DNA from: the human T2T-CHM13v2.0 reference genome, Homo sapiens
DNA length: 64,000 bases
Assembly: GCA_009914755.4 (NCBI GenBank)
Contig: CP068257.2
Span: forward strand, 7,008,001 to 7,072,000
Direction of reading: 5' to 3'
Positions within the stretch are counted from its first letter, which is position 1. The number at the start of each line of letters is the position of its first letter. Position numbers and translations under genes: made by a program. Positions 1 to 10,200 of this stretch are shown here, in pieces. The notes under the pieces are model-generated. The model was not told the DNA's origin and made no database searches. It saw only the letters and a list, made by a program, of their open reading frames with translations.

Positions 1-2139
1 AATAAACTAAACAAAGTTTCTAAATCACTAGAGACTTCTTTTCTTATAAATAACCAACCAATACGACATAATACATATATATATATACATATGTCATGAT
101 TGTCACCATTATTGGCAGTTATCTGTTTAGTACTCTAAAAATGCATTATTTGATTCCTTTTTTCTAAATCTAGTTTCACATGATATACCATAGGGGTCTC
201 TCAGGTTCTTTTACAAAATAACTACACCAGCAAACACAGCTTTCCAAAAAAGAAAAACTGATGTGAACGAAGCATGTATCATTGATGTGCAAAACTTCTA
301 GGGAGAAGAAATGAGATTCTGTGGGTCACCCTCATCCTTCTAACCTCTGTTTTCCATTAAGTGACTTCCCACAAATCTCCTCATCAGAAACCTCCAAATT
401 ACCTAGCTAGCTGCTTTCTTTGTTTACACCTGCCTAATTTGACATACACTCTTTTTCATTCATAAATCTAATATCCATATTGGTGGACTTGATTCTTTGA
501 CCTCTACATTCGTTTCTTCATTATTTTCACCACCACTGTAATGTGACATCTGTACAATCCCATTCTGACACATCTGAAGATAAGGTTTTGCTTTATTAAA
601 ATGTTAAATGTGTCAAGACACTTGACTAACGTGTACAAATTCCTTCTTCACAAAAGCAGCCCCATGGCCTCCTATCTCCCATAGACACGTTCACAGCTGT
701 TCTTCACTCACATCCGTTTGAGTATCTATCATCTCTCATTTTGTCTCTATGCTTTCACCTCATATTATGAGTTATTATCATAGGCTCAGCAGCCTATCTT
801 ACCTATTTTCCTCTCCAGCAGACAGTACTGAGCAATAAAGTAGAATTTTCCAGGATATGAACACTTTTATGTACACAACACTTTGTGGAGCTATTTTATG
901 TTTAACTACCCATAACACCACTATGTCTATGCTTTCCAGAGAAACAAGCTCTGAAATTTTATTGAATATAACCTATTTAAAAACTTCTTTAACTACAATG
1001 ACAGTCTCTCCTTGATGCACCAAATCTTCAGAAATAACTTGTGAAGGCTTGAAAATATGTCAGTAATTGACATGAAAAATGAAGCTTGATGTAATTTTTT
1101 GCAGGTATAAAAAAGACAAGCTGAGATCCTTACAGATCCAGGAAGAGCAAAGTACATTAGACAGGAAATAAATATGGAACAGAAACATTTTCATTTGTAA
1201 TGAAAATTCCTCTATTTACAGTTTTCAAAAGAGAAGAAAATACACACACATACACACACATACACTCACACACAAAAACCAGAGCAATATGGCTTTACAG
1301 GGTGTTTCTTCATCAAAGACCTATTTGTCATTTGATATCTGGGAACACTCTATAGGGATCAACAAAGGGGTTCTAAATTGTGACCTGAATAGTTTAGAGT
1401 TTAACATTCATGAAGGGGAGCCAAGAGGACAAGTAACACTTTGACCATTGGCCATTTCCACTCCTTACTGCTATTCTCTGAAAAGCACACACTGGATTTT
1501 CTCAGAGTTAGGACATGTCAAACAGACATGCTTTAAGGGGGAAACAGTTGCAATTAACACAGCCATGGGAGAGATACAGCTATGCTTGCTAGGATTTCCA
1601 ATACTTCTGTTTCATTTCTAATATAGTACAAATCAGTAAACCGAACCACGTAAGCCTATCCATGCTGGTATGTCATCATATTTAAGTCCATATGGTATCA
1701 GCATGAAGAGAGCATAATATGCTGTAGTCATCACATGGCATATCATGAGATCATACAATAAATCAAGAAATACCTCACTGGGTCAAGGTGGATAGATCTG
1801 AAATATATATCACTGATTTTACAAAGACCAAGTTGCATTCAATAAGTTCACTGCCTGAACTTTTCTACAAGTTTTTAATACACAAAATCAAGTTCTACAT
1901 GTTATCTATGAATGTGCACATATGTTGTAAGAGGTTTTTAATGTGCATTTGGGTGATTTCTTTTTACTTAATTCAAGCTCTTGGTTACATGTCGGCAGTA
2001 AGCTTTAGTATTATAGAAAACCCAAAACAGTAACAGCTCAGAATCACCATCTTAAAAGGCTGTCTACCAAAGAGTCAGGAAAGCATGACTACTTACTTTC
2101 TTCATTTTTGAAACTCAGGCGTACCTCATGCACACTTCC
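1..2139. repeat. A-family tandem repeat, copy A1, 5' part. It continues leftward beyond the window start.
   Basis: Self-comparison: about 92% identical to 30540-32727 (copy A4) and about 70-80% to 5560-7700 (copy A2). Conserved motifs include 'cctcatcagaaacctccaaa..cctagc(t/c)agctgc', 'acaaaggggttctaaa(t/c)tgtga' and 'tgtcatcatattta'. Confidence 0.7.
1236..1275. repeat. imperfect (CA)n microsatellite inside the A unit
   Basis: 'acacacacatacacacacatacactcacacac'. The homologous tract is at 31795-31832 in copy A4. Confidence 0.8.
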
Positions 2140-3195
2140 AAATAAAACTGCACAAGTTCCTTAGTTGAATTAGATCCCGTTTGTCAATTTTGGCTTTTGT
2201 TGCCATTGCTTTTGGTGTTTTAGTCATGAAGTCTTTGCCCATGCCAATGTCTTGAATGGTATTGCCTAGGTTGTCTTCTAGGGTTATTATGGTTTTAGGT
2301 CTTACTTAAACATTTAAGTCTTTAATTTATCTTGAGTTAATTTTTGTGTAAGGTGTAAGGAAGGGGTCCAGTTTCAGTTTCCTGCATAAGGCTAGCCAGT
2401 TTTCCCAACACCATTTATTAAATAGGTAATCTTTTCCCCATTGATTATTTTTTGTGAGGTCTGTCAAAGATCATATGGTTGTAGATGTATGGTGTTACTT
2501 CTGAGGCCTCTGTTCTGTTCCATTGGTCTATATCCCTGTTTTGGTACCTGTACCATGTTGTTTTCATTACTATAGCCTTGTAGTATAGTTTGAAGTCAGG
2601 CAGCGTGATGCCTCCAGCTCTGTTCTTTTTGGTTACAATTGTCTCAGCTATATGAGCTCTTTTTTGTTTCCATATGAAATTTCCAGTAGTTTTTTTCTAA
2701 TTCTGTGAAGAAAGTCAATGGTAGTCTATAGCACTGAACCTATAAATTACTTTGGGCAGTATAGACATTTTCATGATATTGATTCTTCCTATCCATGAGC
2801 ATGGAATGTTTTTCCATTTGTTTGTGTCCTCTCTTATATCCTTGAGCAGTGGTTTGTAGTTCTCCTTGAAGAGGTCTTTCCCATCCCTTGTGAGTTGTAT
2901 TCCAAGGTATTTTATTCTCTTTGTAGCAACTGTGAATGGGCATTCACTCATGATTTGGCTGTTTGTCTTTTATCGTTGTATAGGAATGCTTGTGATTTTT
3001 GCACACTGATTTTGTATCCTGAGACTTTGCTGATGTTGCTTATCAGCTGAAGGAGATTTGGGGCTGAGACGTTTTGGTTTCCTAAATATACAATCATATC
3101 ATCTGCAGAGACAATTTGACTTCCTTTTTTCCTATTTGAATTCCTTTTATTTTTTCCTCTTGTCTGATTGCCCTGGCCAGAACTTCCAATACCAT
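2140..3195 (-). mobile_element. old L1 (L1PB/L1MA-like) ORF2 segment, inverted 5' part of a twin-primed insertion
   Basis: Minus-strand ORFs 2715-2951 and 2948-3214 translate to L1 ORF2 motifs (FADDMIVY.., [54 protein letters not shown]). The reverse complement of L1 'gacaaatgggatctaat..' lies at 2165-2200. Confidence 0.85.
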
Positions 3196-4151
3196 TATCA
3201 GAGTGAACAGGCAACCCACAGAACAGGAGAAAATGTTTGCAATCTCTCCATCTGACAAAAGGCTAATATCCAGAATCTAAAAGGAACTTAAACAAATTTA
3301 TGAGAAAAGAACAAACAACCTCATCAAAAAGTGGGTGAAGGATATCCTCAAAAGAAGACATCTATTCAGCCAGTAAACATATGAAAAAAAGGCTCATCAT
3401 CACTGAACATTAGAGAAATGCAAATCAAAACCACAATGAGATATCATCTCACGCCAGTTAGAATGGTGATCATTAAAAAGTCAGGAAACAACAGATGCTG
3501 GAGAGGATGTGGAGAAATAGGAACACTTTTATATTGTTGGTGGGAGTGTCAATTATTTCAACCACTGTGGAAGACAGTGTGGTGATTCTTCAAGGATCTA
3601 GAACCAGAAATACTATTTGACCCAGCAATCCCATTACTGAATACATACCCCAAAGATTAAAAATCATTCTACTCTAAAGACACATGCACATGTATGTCTA
3701 TTGCAGCACTATTCACAATAGCAAAGACTTGGACCCAACCCGCATGCCCATCAGTGATAGGCTGGATAAAGAAAATGTGGCATATACACATCATGGAATA
3801 CTATGCAGCCATAAAAAAGGATGAGTTCATGTCCTTTGCAAAGACATAGATGAAGCCTGAAACCATCATTCTCAGCAAACTAACACAGGAAAAGAAAACC
3901 AAACGCCACATTTTCTCACTCGTAAGTGGGAATTGAACAATGAGAACACATGGACACAGGGAGGGGAACATCACACACCGGGGCCTGTCAGGGGGTTGGT
4001 GTCCTAGGGGAGGGATAGTATTAGTAGAAATACCTAATGTAGCTGATGGGTTGATGGGTACAGTAAACCACCATGGCATATGTATGCCTATGTAAAAAAC
4101 CTGCATGTTCTTCACATGTATCCCTGAACTTATGGTATAATACAAAACAAA
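3196..4151 (+). mobile_element. L1 3' segment (ORF2 C-terminus, 3'UTR and A-rich tail), direct part of the same twin-primed element
   Basis: 'atcagagtgaacaggcaacc', 'caaatcaaaaccacaatgagatatcatctcac..ggaaacaacagatgctggagaggatgtggagaaatagg', and 'gggaattgaacaatgagaacacatggacacag' through 'acaaaacaaacaaaccaac'. The L1 coordinate at the junction with the inverted piece fits twin-priming topology. Confidence 0.85.
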
Positions 4152-9403: not shown

Positions 9404-9692
9404 TTCTTTTTTGACATGGAGTCTTGCTCTGTTACCTAGGCTGGAGTGCAGTGGCACAATCTCGGCTCACAGCAACCTCCACCGCCTGGGTTCAAGTGAT
9501 TCTCCTGCCTCAGGCTCCCTAGTAGCTGGGACTACAGGCACATGCCACCACGCCTGGCTAATTTTTTGTATTTTTAGTAGAGATGGGGTTTCACCATGTT
9601 AGCCAGGATGGTCTCCATCTCCTGACCTCGTGATCCTCCCGCCTCAGCCTCTCAAAGTGCTGGGATTACAGCCGTGAGTCACCGCGCCCGGC
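9404..9692 (-). mobile_element. full-length Alu (S/Y-like), reverse orientation
   Basis: Poly-T followed by 'gacatggagtcttgctctgttacctaggctggagtgcagtggcacaatctcggctcac' through 'gattacagccgtgagtcaccgcgcccggc'. Possible short TSD 'taatca'. Confidence 0.9.
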
Positions 9693-9924
9693 TTAATCAA
9701 CTTTTACATATCAAAATATTTGCCATGATTATTGACAGTTACACTTTTAGTACTAAAGAAATAAATTTCTCGTTTGTTTTTTTTCTAGTCAGTTTGATAT
9801 TCTATAGTATAGCAGCCTCTGAGGTACTTTTATACAATGGCTATTTCATCAAAAACAGCATTGTTTTAAAGAAAACTGCCAATGTTTTGATATCCAAGTG
9901 CATCCCAGTTCACTAACAAACATG

Positions 9925-10200
9925 AATGAAGCACATATCATTGATGTGTAACCCCTATAGAGAGAAGAAATGAGTTTCTGTGGTTTCCTGTCGTTCTTCT
10001 ACCCTCTGCCTCCAGTAAGCTCCAAAGCAGCAATCATTTAATCTTCTCTTTGAGTGGGAATATACTGAGTCTACATAAAGTGAGTTCCCTCAAGTTTCCT
10101 CATCAGAAACCTCCAAATACCTAGCCAGCTGCTTTCTTAATTTACACAATCCCACCTCACATTTTTTTGTAAATATACTAATGTCCATTTCTCAACAATG
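9925..10200. repeat. A-family partial copy A3 (first about 275 bp of a unit only)
   Basis: 'gaagcacatatcattgatgtg..agagagaagaaatgag..ctgtgg' and 'cataaagtgagttccctcaagtttcctcatcagaaacctccaaatacctagccagctgctttc' align to A1 250-450 and A2 5810-6050. Confidence 0.6.

What the first reader, a model, noticed from the sequence alone, without database searches (positions are those of the whole stretch)
1..10200. Ancient, strongly diverged tandem array of A units about 3.5 kb long, with a dispersed fourth copy 30 kb away
Homologous points recur at about 100, 5660 and 9730. Subtracting the 2.0-kb L1 in A1 and the two Alus in A2 gives a base period near 3.5 kb, with 2.5 or more units in tandem and a truncated third start at 9925-10200. 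Adjacent copies differ by an estimated 10-30%, which is far older than the A1/A4 pair (about 8%). A1 continues beyond the window start. Together with the 1.88-kb array this defines one repeat family present as two arrays of different unit length inside 30 kb. That pattern suggests stepwise unequal exchange followed by unit shortening.
Basis: seen in the sequence. Interest (0 to 1): 0.6.

Follow-up and report, generated by a model that had tools for sequence, protein, structure and literature searches.

The report
Old decayed 3.45-kb tandem repeat
This is a real but ordinary relic: a non-coding stretch of primate DNA next to satellite repeats that was duplicated head-to-tail long ago, then decayed, was hit by L1 and Alu insertions, and was later copied again as part of a larger multi-copy duplicated segment.

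Summary
Collinear, same-strand homology recurs with origins at 81, 5645 and 9693. After removing a 2.0-kb L1, two Alus and an 84-bp L1 scrap, the unit is 3.38-3.45 kb. Units are 73-82% identical. A copy at 30605-32727 is 91% identical to the first.

The 1.88-kb units (25812-30357) are distant relatives (54-61%; profile E 1e-14 to 1e-55; shuffles give nothing).

No protein domain, Rfam family or long ORF lies in the unit, and identity is uniform along it, so it looks like neutral, non-coding DNA.

- "A1" is a chimera of two units fused at a twin-primed L1. The 180-bp flank overlap is not a target-site duplication.
- The "dispersed" fourth copy is the end of a duplicated module (1.88-kb array + unit + the same L1) and is contiguous with the 1.88-kb array.
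- "Unit shortening" is not shown. The short unit carries its own 350 bp, including a MER5-like fragment.
- 35 host-derived metagenome contigs show the segment is multi-copy (about 18 distinct head sequences) and include recombinant variants.

Verdict: a decayed tandem duplication inside a satellite-adjacent duplicon mosaic, of low interest.

The parts
1..80 (+). End of a 250-bp tail fragment (profile positions about 3610-3689) that precedes the first unit. It is the counterpart of 30525-30604.
   Evidence: 83% identical to 30525-30604. Contigs L005, L024, L027 and L031 continue upstream into 1.88-kb-type units.
81..2148 (+). A1a: head and body of an alpha-lineage unit (profile positions 4-2196), cut off at the L1.
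   Evidence: nhmmer. It is 91.1% identical to A4 and 73.4% identical to A2.
2149..3195 (-). Inverted 5' segment of a twin-primed L1 (ORF2p up to about residue 1020).
   Evidence: Matches 46851-45796 on the - strand at 84%. The - strand peptide matches LINE-1 ORF2p at E=7e-55.
3197..4147 (+). Sense 3' segment of the same L1 (ORF2p residues 1092-1275 plus the 3' UTR and a degenerate A-rich tail).
   Evidence: Matches 46869-47832 at 81%. Peptide matches ORF2p at E=6e-94. The tail was read.
4149..5644 (+). A1b: body end and tail of a different, beta-lineage unit (profile positions 2001-3693).
   Evidence: It is 79.2% identical to A2. The first 180 bp are 86.9% identical to A2 but 68.8% to the pre-L1 copy.
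5645..9692 (+). A2: the only complete unit (3450 bp once insertions are removed), beta lineage.
   Evidence: No Pfam hit in any of six frames.
5680..5763 (+). Tiny L1 3'-end fragment with an A-rich tail, inserted just after the A1b/A2 junction.
   Evidence: Matches 47770-47850 at 85%. Seen as an insertion relative to the other heads.
8816..9120 (+). Alu1 with its A-tail, flanked by the 17-bp target-site duplication GAAAATGTATCATTCGC.
   Evidence: It is 90.6% identical to an AluY consensus written from memory.
9400..9692 (-). Alu2, inserted exactly at the A2/A3 junction.
   Evidence: 88.8% identical to the remembered AluY; flanks TAATCATC and TAATCAAC.
9693..10195 (+). A3: the head of a third beta-lineage unit, truncated.
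   Evidence: profile positions 2-501, E=8e-144. It is 82% identical to the A2 head.
10250..10400 (.). AT-rich, self-complementary low-complexity tract just beyond the right end of the array.
25812..30357 (+). B array: 2.4 units of 1.88 kb (B1 25812-27691, B2 27692-29572, B3 29573-30357). Each unit is an A tail (profile positions about 2590-3600), an A head (about 37-555) and 350 bp specific to B.
   Evidence: The B-specific part has no A homology and contains a MER5A-like fragment.
30358..30604 (+). Tail fragment (profile positions 3466-3689) between B3 and A4.
   Evidence: The same junction is present in contigs L005, L012, L016, L024, L027, L031 and L034.
30605..32727 (+). A4: the alpha-lineage copy of A1a.
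32728..34227 (.). The same twin-primed L1 as in A1 (inverted part 32728-33765, sense part 33760-34227), cut off by the (ATTCC)n satellite.
   Evidence: It is 89.0% identical to the A1 L1.
34266..39315 (+). (ATTCC)n satellite of the HSat2/3 type, about 1007 copies. This is the context that truncates the duplicated module.
   Evidence: TRF. CpG observed/expected is about 1.0.
39491..44233 (+). Satellite with a 68/69-bp unit, 69.5 copies (beta-satellite-like). Context only.
   Evidence: TRF. The 68-bp unit is the defining feature of betaSat according to 10.1101/2021.07.12.452052.

Best explanation
The feature is a decayed, non-coding, long-period tandem duplication with no indication of present function. 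It sits in satellite-adjacent ('centric-transition'-type) DNA of a hominoid genome.

Proposed history. The order is shown by the nested divergences. The absolute ages are rough inference.

1. An ancestral segment was duplicated head to tail. Its descendants form two unit types: A (3.45 kb) and B (1.88 kb). They share a tail of about 1.1 kb and a head of about 0.55 kb, and differ in what lies between. They are 54-61% identical.

2. The A type duplicated again into an alpha lineage (A1a, A4) and a beta lineage (A1b, A2, A3). Alpha and beta are 72-74% identical. Beta units are 78-82% identical to each other. The B type was amplified after a MER5-like element had entered it, and B units are 80-86% identical to each other.

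3. A twin-primed L1 then inserted. Its A-tail lies at an A/T-rich site in one beta unit, and its inverted 5' end is joined to the preceding alpha unit. About 3.3 kb, roughly one unit-length, was most likely deleted between them, which fused two units into what looks like 'A1'. Two Alus and an L1 scrap also entered A2.

4. A module consisting of the B array, a tail fragment, the alpha unit and the L1 was duplicated as a block. This is the A1/A4 pair (91% in the unit, 89% in the L1). One copy now ends in (ATTCC)n satellite.

5. The whole segment was later amplified to many paralogues that differ by 1-5%. Some of them have lost exactly one unit or carry hybrid units, which indicates continuing unequal exchange.

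Shown: the homology, the phase, the insertions, the chimeric A1, the shared L1 junction and the multi-copy status. Inferred: the deletion mechanism at the L1, the polarity of events and the dates.
For: - Collinear, same-strand, junction-spanning homology.
- Family hits occur only in 76-10189 and 25773-32729, and never on the - strand or elsewhere in the 64 kb.
- Shuffle and reversal controls are clean.
- No Pfam domain in six frames of A2, no Rfam hit and no ORF of 110 aa or more outside the L1.
- Identity is uniform at 67-84% per 150 bp, with no conserved island.
- Nested divergence hierarchy.
- L1 identity and inverted/sense geometry.
- Flank test: 153/176 against 119/173 matches, p=5e-5. 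A1b-A2 is 79.2% and A1a-A2 is 73.4%, p=2e-4.
- The unit and the L1 diverged equally between A1 and A4.
- 35 host-derived contigs are mostly collinear with the window. Every alpha-type contig that reaches far enough keeps the same unit/L1 junction. Contigs over the same stretch differ by 1-2.3%. There are about 18 distinct head sequences in four clades.
- L008 and L028 join an A1b-type tail seamlessly to an A3-type head.
- The literature states that non-satellite DNA between such arrays is largely segmental duplication.
Against: - No curated repeat library (Dfam or RepeatMasker) and no primate genome could be searched. The unit may therefore be annotated already, or may be a mosaic of ancient non-coding transposon fragments.
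- The B/A relationship rests on 54-61% identity. It is statistically solid, but too weak for reliable dating.
- The metagenome contigs are short, low-coverage assemblies of a multi-copy region. Some variant junctions or part of the 1-2% differences could be assembly chimeras or errors.
- The L1-associated deletion is inferred from divergence patterns only.
Confidence: 0.8

Rival explanations
1. The 'units' are independent insertions of one interspersed transposable element (for example a non-coding LTR-element internal region or an L1 UTR) that landed next to each other. On this reading it is not a tandem duplication.
For: Divergences of 18-27% are typical of old transposon copies. Some contigs (L017, L021, L018, L030) show unrelated flanks next to A-type sequence. 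No curated transposon library could be consulted.
Against: - Homology runs straight through two tail-to-head junctions in phase.
- All copies are on one strand and confined to two blocks. There are no fragments elsewhere in the 64 kb.
- There are no transposon protein domains.
- All alpha-type copies in the contigs share the same secondary L1 junction, so they arose by segmental duplication and not by transposition.
- The variant flanks begin at a TA-rich microsatellite, as expected for rearrangement breakpoints.
Confidence: 0.05
2. The polarity is the reverse of the reader's. The short B-type unit (about 1.9 kb) is ancestral, and the 3.45-kb A unit arose when about 2 kb of foreign DNA replaced or entered the middle of a unit that was then re-amplified. 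Alternatively, both are independent replacements, so no 'unit shortening' occurred.
For: The A-specific 2 kb and the B-specific 350 bp lie between the same conserved flanks (profile positions about 555 and about 2590) and share no detectable homology. The B-specific part carries an old MER5A-like fragment, so it is not simply a residue of A.
Against: Nothing identifies the A-specific 2 kb as an insertion. It has no transposon domains, and no terminal repeats or target-site duplication were seen. A deletion combined with a MER5-containing filler is equally possible. The MER5A consensus was written from memory.
Confidence: 0.35
3. A1 is a single unit. The 180-bp block on both sides of the L1 is an unusually long L1 target-site duplication, and the downstream copy (with the rest of A1b) was later gene-converted by A2.
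For: Both copies of the block start or end exactly at the L1 ends. Identity between A1b and A2 is highest (84-87%) right next to the L1 and lower further on, as a conversion tract might look.
Against: The two copies are only 68.8% identical to each other. That is far more diverged than the L1 copies in A1 and A4 (89%) or than two independent L1s in the window (81-85%). The whole 1.5-kb A1b is closer to A2 than A1a is (p=2e-4), so a conversion tract of at least 1.5 kb would be required.
Confidence: 0.12

Closest known systems
Pericentromeric / 'centric transition' segmental duplications (duplicon mosaics between satellite arrays)
   Same: - It is non-satellite DNA directly flanked by (ATTCC)n and a 68-bp satellite.
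- There are multiple paralogues at 88-99% identity that share secondary insertions and have different breakpoints.
[quoted passage not shown]
   Different: The chromosomal location and the species could not be established. The copy number is inferred from contaminant contigs, not from an assembled genome.
Macrosatellites (kilobase-unit tandem arrays such as D4Z4 at 3.3 kb or DXZ4 at 3 kb; from my own knowledge)
   Same: It is a head-to-tail array with a unit of about 3.5 kb. There are hints of unit loss or gain between paralogues (L008, L028).
   Different: There are only about 2 unit-equivalents here. Units are 73-82% identical, whereas macrosatellites are typically above 95%. It is AT-rich and CpG-poor (35% GC, CpG observed/expected 0.15-0.2), with no ORF. 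It is a fossil, not a homogenised array.
Twin-primed L1 insertions and L1-associated target-site deletions
   Same: An inverted upstream L1 segment abuts a sense 3' segment taken from contiguous L1 coordinates. This is the architecture described for twin priming (PMC2837659). The flanks lack a target-site duplication and come from different units, which fits insertion with loss of target DNA (reviewed in PMC4859970 and PMC1920257).
   Different: The deletion of about 3.3 kb is inferred from unit phylogeny and not from an empty-site comparison. Because the target was a tandem repeat, the product mimics a 180-bp target-site duplication.
Composite satellites and satellites with embedded ancient transposon fragments (T2T-CHM13 annotation)
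   Same: The B unit includes a MER5-like fragment as part of its repeating unit. The T2T centromere paper notes that satellites often include fragments of ancient transposons in their units.
   Different: Composite satellites are built entirely of transposon combinations and occur as larger arrays. Here most of the unit has no recognisable transposon content and the copy number is tiny.

Membership tests
Tandem repeat array (long-period) | Copies lie head to tail, on the same strand and in constant phase | tested here: met
   The nhmmer hits are collinear: profile positions 4-2196, 2001-3693, 5-3330, 3396-3693 and 2-501 across 76-10189, and likewise across 25773-32729. All are on the + strand.
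Tandem repeat array (long-period) | Homology continues across tail-to-head junctions at two or more junctions | tested here: met
   5633-6102 matches 9693-10192. The junction alignment covers A1b/A2, A2/A3, B1/B2 and B2/B3.
Macrosatellite | Many units with high inter-unit identity (homogenised, typically above 95%) | tested here: not met
   There are about 2.2 A unit-equivalents and 2.4 B units. Identity is 73-82% among A units and 80-86% among B units.
Macrosatellite | Copy-number variation between individuals or loci | tested here: inconclusive
   Contigs L008 and L028 lack exactly unit A2. These are paralogues or unknown loci taken from short metagenome assemblies.
Interspersed transposable element | Remnants of transposon proteins (RT, integrase, gag, transposase) | tested here: not met
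   Pfam on six X-masked frames of 5630-8815 gave nothing meaningful at E<=1. The same approach does detect the neighbouring L1.
Interspersed transposable element | Copies in unrelated genomic contexts and in both orientations | tested here: not met
   There is no hit outside the two arrays or on the - strand in the 64 kb. The contigs are collinear with the window and share the secondary L1 junction.
Interspersed transposable element | Match to a curated repeat consensus (Dfam or Repbase) | not testable with these tools
   No eukaryotic repeat library is available. Only remembered consensus sequences for Alu, MER5A and MIR were tried. None hit the A unit apart from the two Alus.
Segmental duplication / duplicon | Non-allelic copies of at least 1 kb at roughly 90% identity or more | tested here: met
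   A1-A4 is 91% over 2048 aligned nt, plus the L1 at 89%. Contigs are 88-98.8% identical over 2-7 kb and differ from each other by 1-2.3%.
Segmental duplication / duplicon | Copies share secondary insertions, so the duplication postdates them | tested here: met
   The unit/L1 junction 2148|2149 is the same as 32727|32728, and it is present in all alpha-type contigs that reach it.
Twin-primed L1 insertion | An inverted 5' segment and a sense 3' segment from adjacent L1 coordinates, with an A-tail | tested here: met
   2149-3195 matches 46851-45796 on the - strand. 3197-4147 matches 46869-47832 on the + strand. ORF2p residues run up to 1020 and then 1092-1275. The A-rich tail is at 4138-4150.
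Twin-primed L1 insertion | A flanking target-site duplication | tested here: not met
   The 180-bp flank copies are 68.8% identical to each other. The downstream copy groups with A2 at 86.9%. This points to target deletion between two units.
Beta satellite (context) | A 68-bp tandem unit | tested here: met
   TRF gives period 68/69 and 69.5 copies at 39491-44233. Similarity to a reference betaSat sequence was not tested.

The most novel reading that the evidence does not exclude
The A/B family could be a so far unnamed, ancient long-unit repeat (3.45 kb and 1.88 kb) dating to early eutherian times. On this reading it survived as a fossil array, then became the core of a hominoid duplicon that spread among HSat3 and beta-satellite blocks. 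Its units would still be exchanging: whole-unit loss, hybrid units, and satellite abutting different unit positions in different paralogues. That would make it a natural marker for reconstructing how satellite-adjacent duplicons are seeded and reshuffled.
Probability: 0.15. Interest if true: 0.35.

Novelty: new member of a known kind. Interest (0 to 1): 0.15.

Why it matters
It matters little biologically. There is no sign of coding, RNA or regulatory function. It is one more example of how satellite-adjacent primate DNA is built by layered tandem duplication, retrotransposon insertion, block duplication and unequal exchange.

Its practical value is as a worked case:
- An L1 inserted into a tandem repeat can mimic a very long target-site duplication while actually marking a one-unit deletion.
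- An apparently 'dispersed' copy can be the edge of a larger duplicated module.
- The nested divergences give a relative clock for events around an HSat3/beta-satellite block.

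Tried and rejected
- Pfam via DNA references failed because of stop codons. I redid it with X-masked translations and found nothing in A2.
- Rfam at gathering thresholds over the whole window gave 0 hits.
- Pfam has no model for the L1 ORF2 C-terminal part, so I used PDB sequences instead.
- The prokaryote genome-contig scan for the unit motif gave 0 hits, which is uninformative.
- The idea that the unit is an LTR-internal-LTR array (MaLR or ERV) was considered. 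There are no internal direct repeats in the unit, no gag or pol signal and 35% GC. I did not pursue it further because no LTR library is available.
- An exon-relic or gene-cluster reading was rejected, because there is no conserved island along the unit and there are no ORFs.
- I tried to name the duplicon via the literature ('chAB4', remembered as a pericentromeric multi-copy family). The search returned nothing usable, so no membership is claimed.
- I tried to find A homology in the B-specific 350 bp. Local alignment is no better than shuffles.
- One paper search failed on a term of fewer than 3 characters.
- Species and chromosome assignment was not possible. No contig is 99% or more identical to the window over its full length. 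Because the contigs also differ from each other by 1-2%, this does not distinguish 'another ape' from 'another paralogue'.

Full report
**Setting**

The window is AT-rich and strongly CpG-depleted. CpG observed/expected is 0.1-0.3 except in the satellite. It contains about 20 Alu copies and L1 sequence. It also holds a 5-kb (ATTCC)n block at 34266-39315 and a 4.7-kb array with a 68/69-bp unit at 39491-44233. It is therefore primate, very probably hominoid, DNA of the kind found beside HSat2/3 and beta satellite. The T2T centromere paper defines betaSat by its 68-bp unit. It describes the non-satellite DNA between such arrays as 'centric transition' regions that consist largely of segmental duplications (10.1101/2021.07.12.452052).

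Yes. Self-BLAST gives these collinear + strand matches:
- 355-2134 with 5977-7751 (72%)
- 4149-5069 with 7566-8433 (76%)
- 5063-5234 with 8597-8778 (76%)
- 5351-5644 with 9117-9405 (77%)
- 5633-6102 with 9693-10192, which crosses the unit junction
- 1-3639 with 30525-34218 (87%)

The interruptions are genuine later insertions:
- A 1999-bp L1 lies at 2149-4147.
- Alu1 lies at 8816-9120 and has a perfect 17-bp target-site duplication.
- Alu2 lies at 9400-9692 on the - strand.
- An 84-bp L1 3'-end scrap lies at 5680-5763.

With phase origins at 81, 5645, 9693 and 30605, the cleaned units measure 3377 and 3450 bp.

A 38-bp degenerate motif occurs exactly once per unit head, giving 4 hits against 0 expected.

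A profile built from the A units finds family members only at 76-10189 and 25773-32729. All are on the + strand and in phase. Reversed and locally shuffled controls give nothing better than E=0.066, whereas the real 1.88-kb array scores E 1e-14 to 1e-55.

**What the unit is not**

- Six-frame translations of the complete unit A2 have no Pfam match.
- The window has no Rfam hit.
- No ORF of 110 aa or more lies in the units outside the L1.
- Identity between units is even along the unit, at 67-84% per 150 bp, with no exon-like island.
- No fragment of the family occurs elsewhere in the 64 kb or on the other strand.

So there is no support for a coding transposon, a gene cluster or a structured RNA. 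The DNA behaves as neutrally decaying sequence. A curated repeat library was not available, so ancient non-coding transposon fragments inside the unit cannot be excluded.

**Unit relationships**

| Comparison | Identity | K2P distance |
|---|---|---|
| B units vs A units | 54-61% | 0.6-0.75 |
| Alpha lineage (A1a, A4) vs beta lineage (A1b, A2, A3) | 72-74% | 0.33-0.38 |
| Beta vs beta | 78-82% | 0.21-0.26 |
| B vs B | 80-86% | not summarised |
| A1 vs A4 | 91% | 0.095 |

A1 and A4 also share a 60-bp deletion in the head that is absent from A2, A3 and the B units.

**'A1' is a chimera**

A 180-bp block is present once in A2 but on both sides of the L1 in A1. If this were a long L1 target-site duplication, the two copies should be each other's closest relatives. 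They are not:
- The downstream copy is 86.9% identical to A2 (153/176).
- The upstream copy is 68.8% identical to A2 (119/173) and 68.8% to the downstream copy.
- The upstream copy is 88.1% identical to A4.
- Fisher p=5e-5 for the upstream versus downstream comparison with A2.

The whole downstream part, A1b, is also closer to A2 (79.2%) than the upstream part A1a is (73.4%; p=2e-4).

The L1 has the twin-priming architecture. Segment 2149-3195 is inverted and encodes ORF2p up to about residue 1020. Segment 3197-4147 is in sense orientation and encodes residues 1092-1275, followed by the 3' UTR and an A-rich tail. Together they correspond to contiguous coordinates 45796-47832 of the intact-looking L1 further along the window. 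Twin priming is described in PMC2837659.

The simplest reading is as follows. Reverse transcription started at the A/T-rich site at the beginning of the block in one beta unit. The 5' end was joined in the preceding alpha unit. About 3.3 kb, one unit minus the 180-bp overlap, was lost. L1-associated target deletions are documented (PMC4859970, PMC1920257). This step is inferred. The rival is a long target-site duplication followed by gene conversion over at least 1.5 kb, which I rate at about 0.12.

**The fourth copy and the 1.88-kb array**

A4 (30605-32727) is not isolated. It is preceded by a 250-bp tail fragment (30358-30604), and before that by the B array (25812-30357). It is followed by the same L1 at the same junction (32727|32728 corresponds to 2148|2149). 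That L1 has diverged as much as the unit has: 89.0% against 91.1%.

Contigs L005, L024, L027 and L031 match window 1-800/2200 at 98%. They continue upstream into a tail fragment and 1.87-kb B-type units.

So A1/A4 is one block duplication of a module made of the B array, a tail fragment, the alpha unit and the L1. One copy is now cut off inside the L1 by (ATTCC)n at 34227-34266.

**Polarity of A and B**

Each B unit consists of the A tail (profile positions about 2590-3600), the A head (about 37-555) and 350 bp of its own. That 350 bp has no detectable similarity to any A part (z<=1 against shuffles). In both B1 and B2 it contains a MER5A-like fragment: 78-81% identity, E 3e-11 and 1e-8, against a consensus written from memory.

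B is therefore not simply A minus 2 kb. Unit shortening is possible but not shown, and the reverse polarity is about as likely.

**The segment is multi-copy**

The head motif found 35 contigs in public metagenomes (human skin and similar samples), which represent host DNA.
- Most are collinear with the window from end to end.
- None is 99% or more identical to the window over its full length. The best are 98.8% over 6.9 kb and 98.7% over 6.1 kb.
- Contigs that cover the same stretch differ from one another by 1-2.3% over 3-5 kb. That is too much for alleles.
- A 645-bp head region resolves into an A2-type clade, an A4-type clade, an A1-type clade and an intermediate clade, with about 18 distinct sequences.
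- Every alpha-type contig that reaches the L1 has the same junction. These are therefore paralogues made by duplication, not transposition.
- Several have different upstream ends. Unrelated flanks begin at the TA-rich microsatellite at the alpha origin or near profile position 130-175, and one has an LTR-like insertion. This is the pattern of a duplicon mosaic.
- L008 and L028 join an A1b-type tail seamlessly to an A3-type head. They lack A2, both Alus and the L1 scrap.
- L008 then continues into an alpha-like body, and at its other end it abuts (ATTCC)n.

If these variants are not assembly chimeras, they show whole-unit loss and hybrid units. That means unequal exchange continued after the amplification.

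**Rough timing (inference only)**

Per-lineage divergences are as follows:
- about 20-23% for the A/B split, similar to the 19-22% divergence of the MER5-like fragment from its consensus
- about 13% for alpha versus beta
- about 10% for beta versus beta, similar to the Alus' 9-11% from a remembered AluY consensus
- about 4.5-5.5% for A1 versus A4
- about 0.5-1.2% among the recent paralogues

This suggests a series running from early eutherian, through early primate and catarrhine or hominoid, to recent great-ape events. Saturation, alignment uncertainty and unknown local mutation rates make the absolute dates unreliable.

**Verdict**

The feature is an ordinary fossil tandem duplication inside a satellite-adjacent, multi-copy duplicon. 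It is a new member of a known kind, with no evidence of function. Interest is low, at 0.15.

Noticed in passing
window 14121-25808: A second, unrelated tandem duplication with a unit of about 5.4-5.7 kb. 14121-18064 matches 19536-23470 at 88%, and 18059-19793 matches 24078-25808 at 89%. It is bounded by three same-orientation Alus (14144, 19558, 25575), which is the geometry expected from Alu-Alu unequal exchange. Copy 2 has about 600 bp extra (23470-24078). The third Alu is cut at about 25808, exactly where the 1.88-kb array begins.
   Followed up: partly
window 34266-44233: A 5-kb (ATTCC)n block abuts a 4.7-kb array with a 68/69-bp unit (beta-satellite-like, 69.5 copies), with under 200 bp between them. 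The (ATTCC)n block has CpG observed/expected of about 1.0 and strong C/T strand bias. It begins inside a truncated L1.
   Followed up: partly
window 8816-9692: The two Alus in unit A2 form an inverted pair only about 280 bp apart (83% identical), which is a potentially hairpin-forming arrangement. Alu2 sits exactly on the A2/A3 unit junction.
   Followed up: no
window 10170-10400: An AT-rich, self-complementary low-complexity tract ((TAATT)n-like) lies immediately beyond the truncated third unit. It may mark the breakpoint that ended the array.
   Followed up: no
window 28828-28899 and 26967-27019: A MER5A-like hAT MITE fragment lies inside the B-specific part of each 1.88-kb unit (78-81% to a consensus written from memory). 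MIR-like fragments lie at 59766-59889 and 25047-25243.
   Followed up: partly
window 44199-47832: A long + strand L1 with a recognisable reverse-transcriptase domain (RVT_1, E=5e-26, at 45400-45966). It serves as the internal reference for the L1 pieces in A1 and A4. The + strand remains A-rich as far as about 58 kb.
   Followed up: partly
L008 3159-3334; L008 and L028 junctions: In another paralogue, (ATTCC)n abuts the family at a different unit position (equivalent to window 4788). An A1b-type tail is also joined directly to an A3-type head. Satellite/duplicon junctions therefore differ between copies.
   Followed up: partly
PDB chain 9d2f_J residues 290-351: A solved chain labelled 'Cilia- and flagella-associated protein 61' matches the L1 ORF2p C-terminal peptide at E=1.6e-7. 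This could be an L1-derived segment in that protein's sequence.
   Followed up: no
L001-L035 (metagenome contigs): Public metagenome assemblies (skin and other host-associated samples) contain kilobase-scale host contigs from this multi-copy satellite-adjacent region. Several come from the same samples at 5-9x coverage. This is consistent with high copy number of the segment in the host genome.
   Followed up: partly
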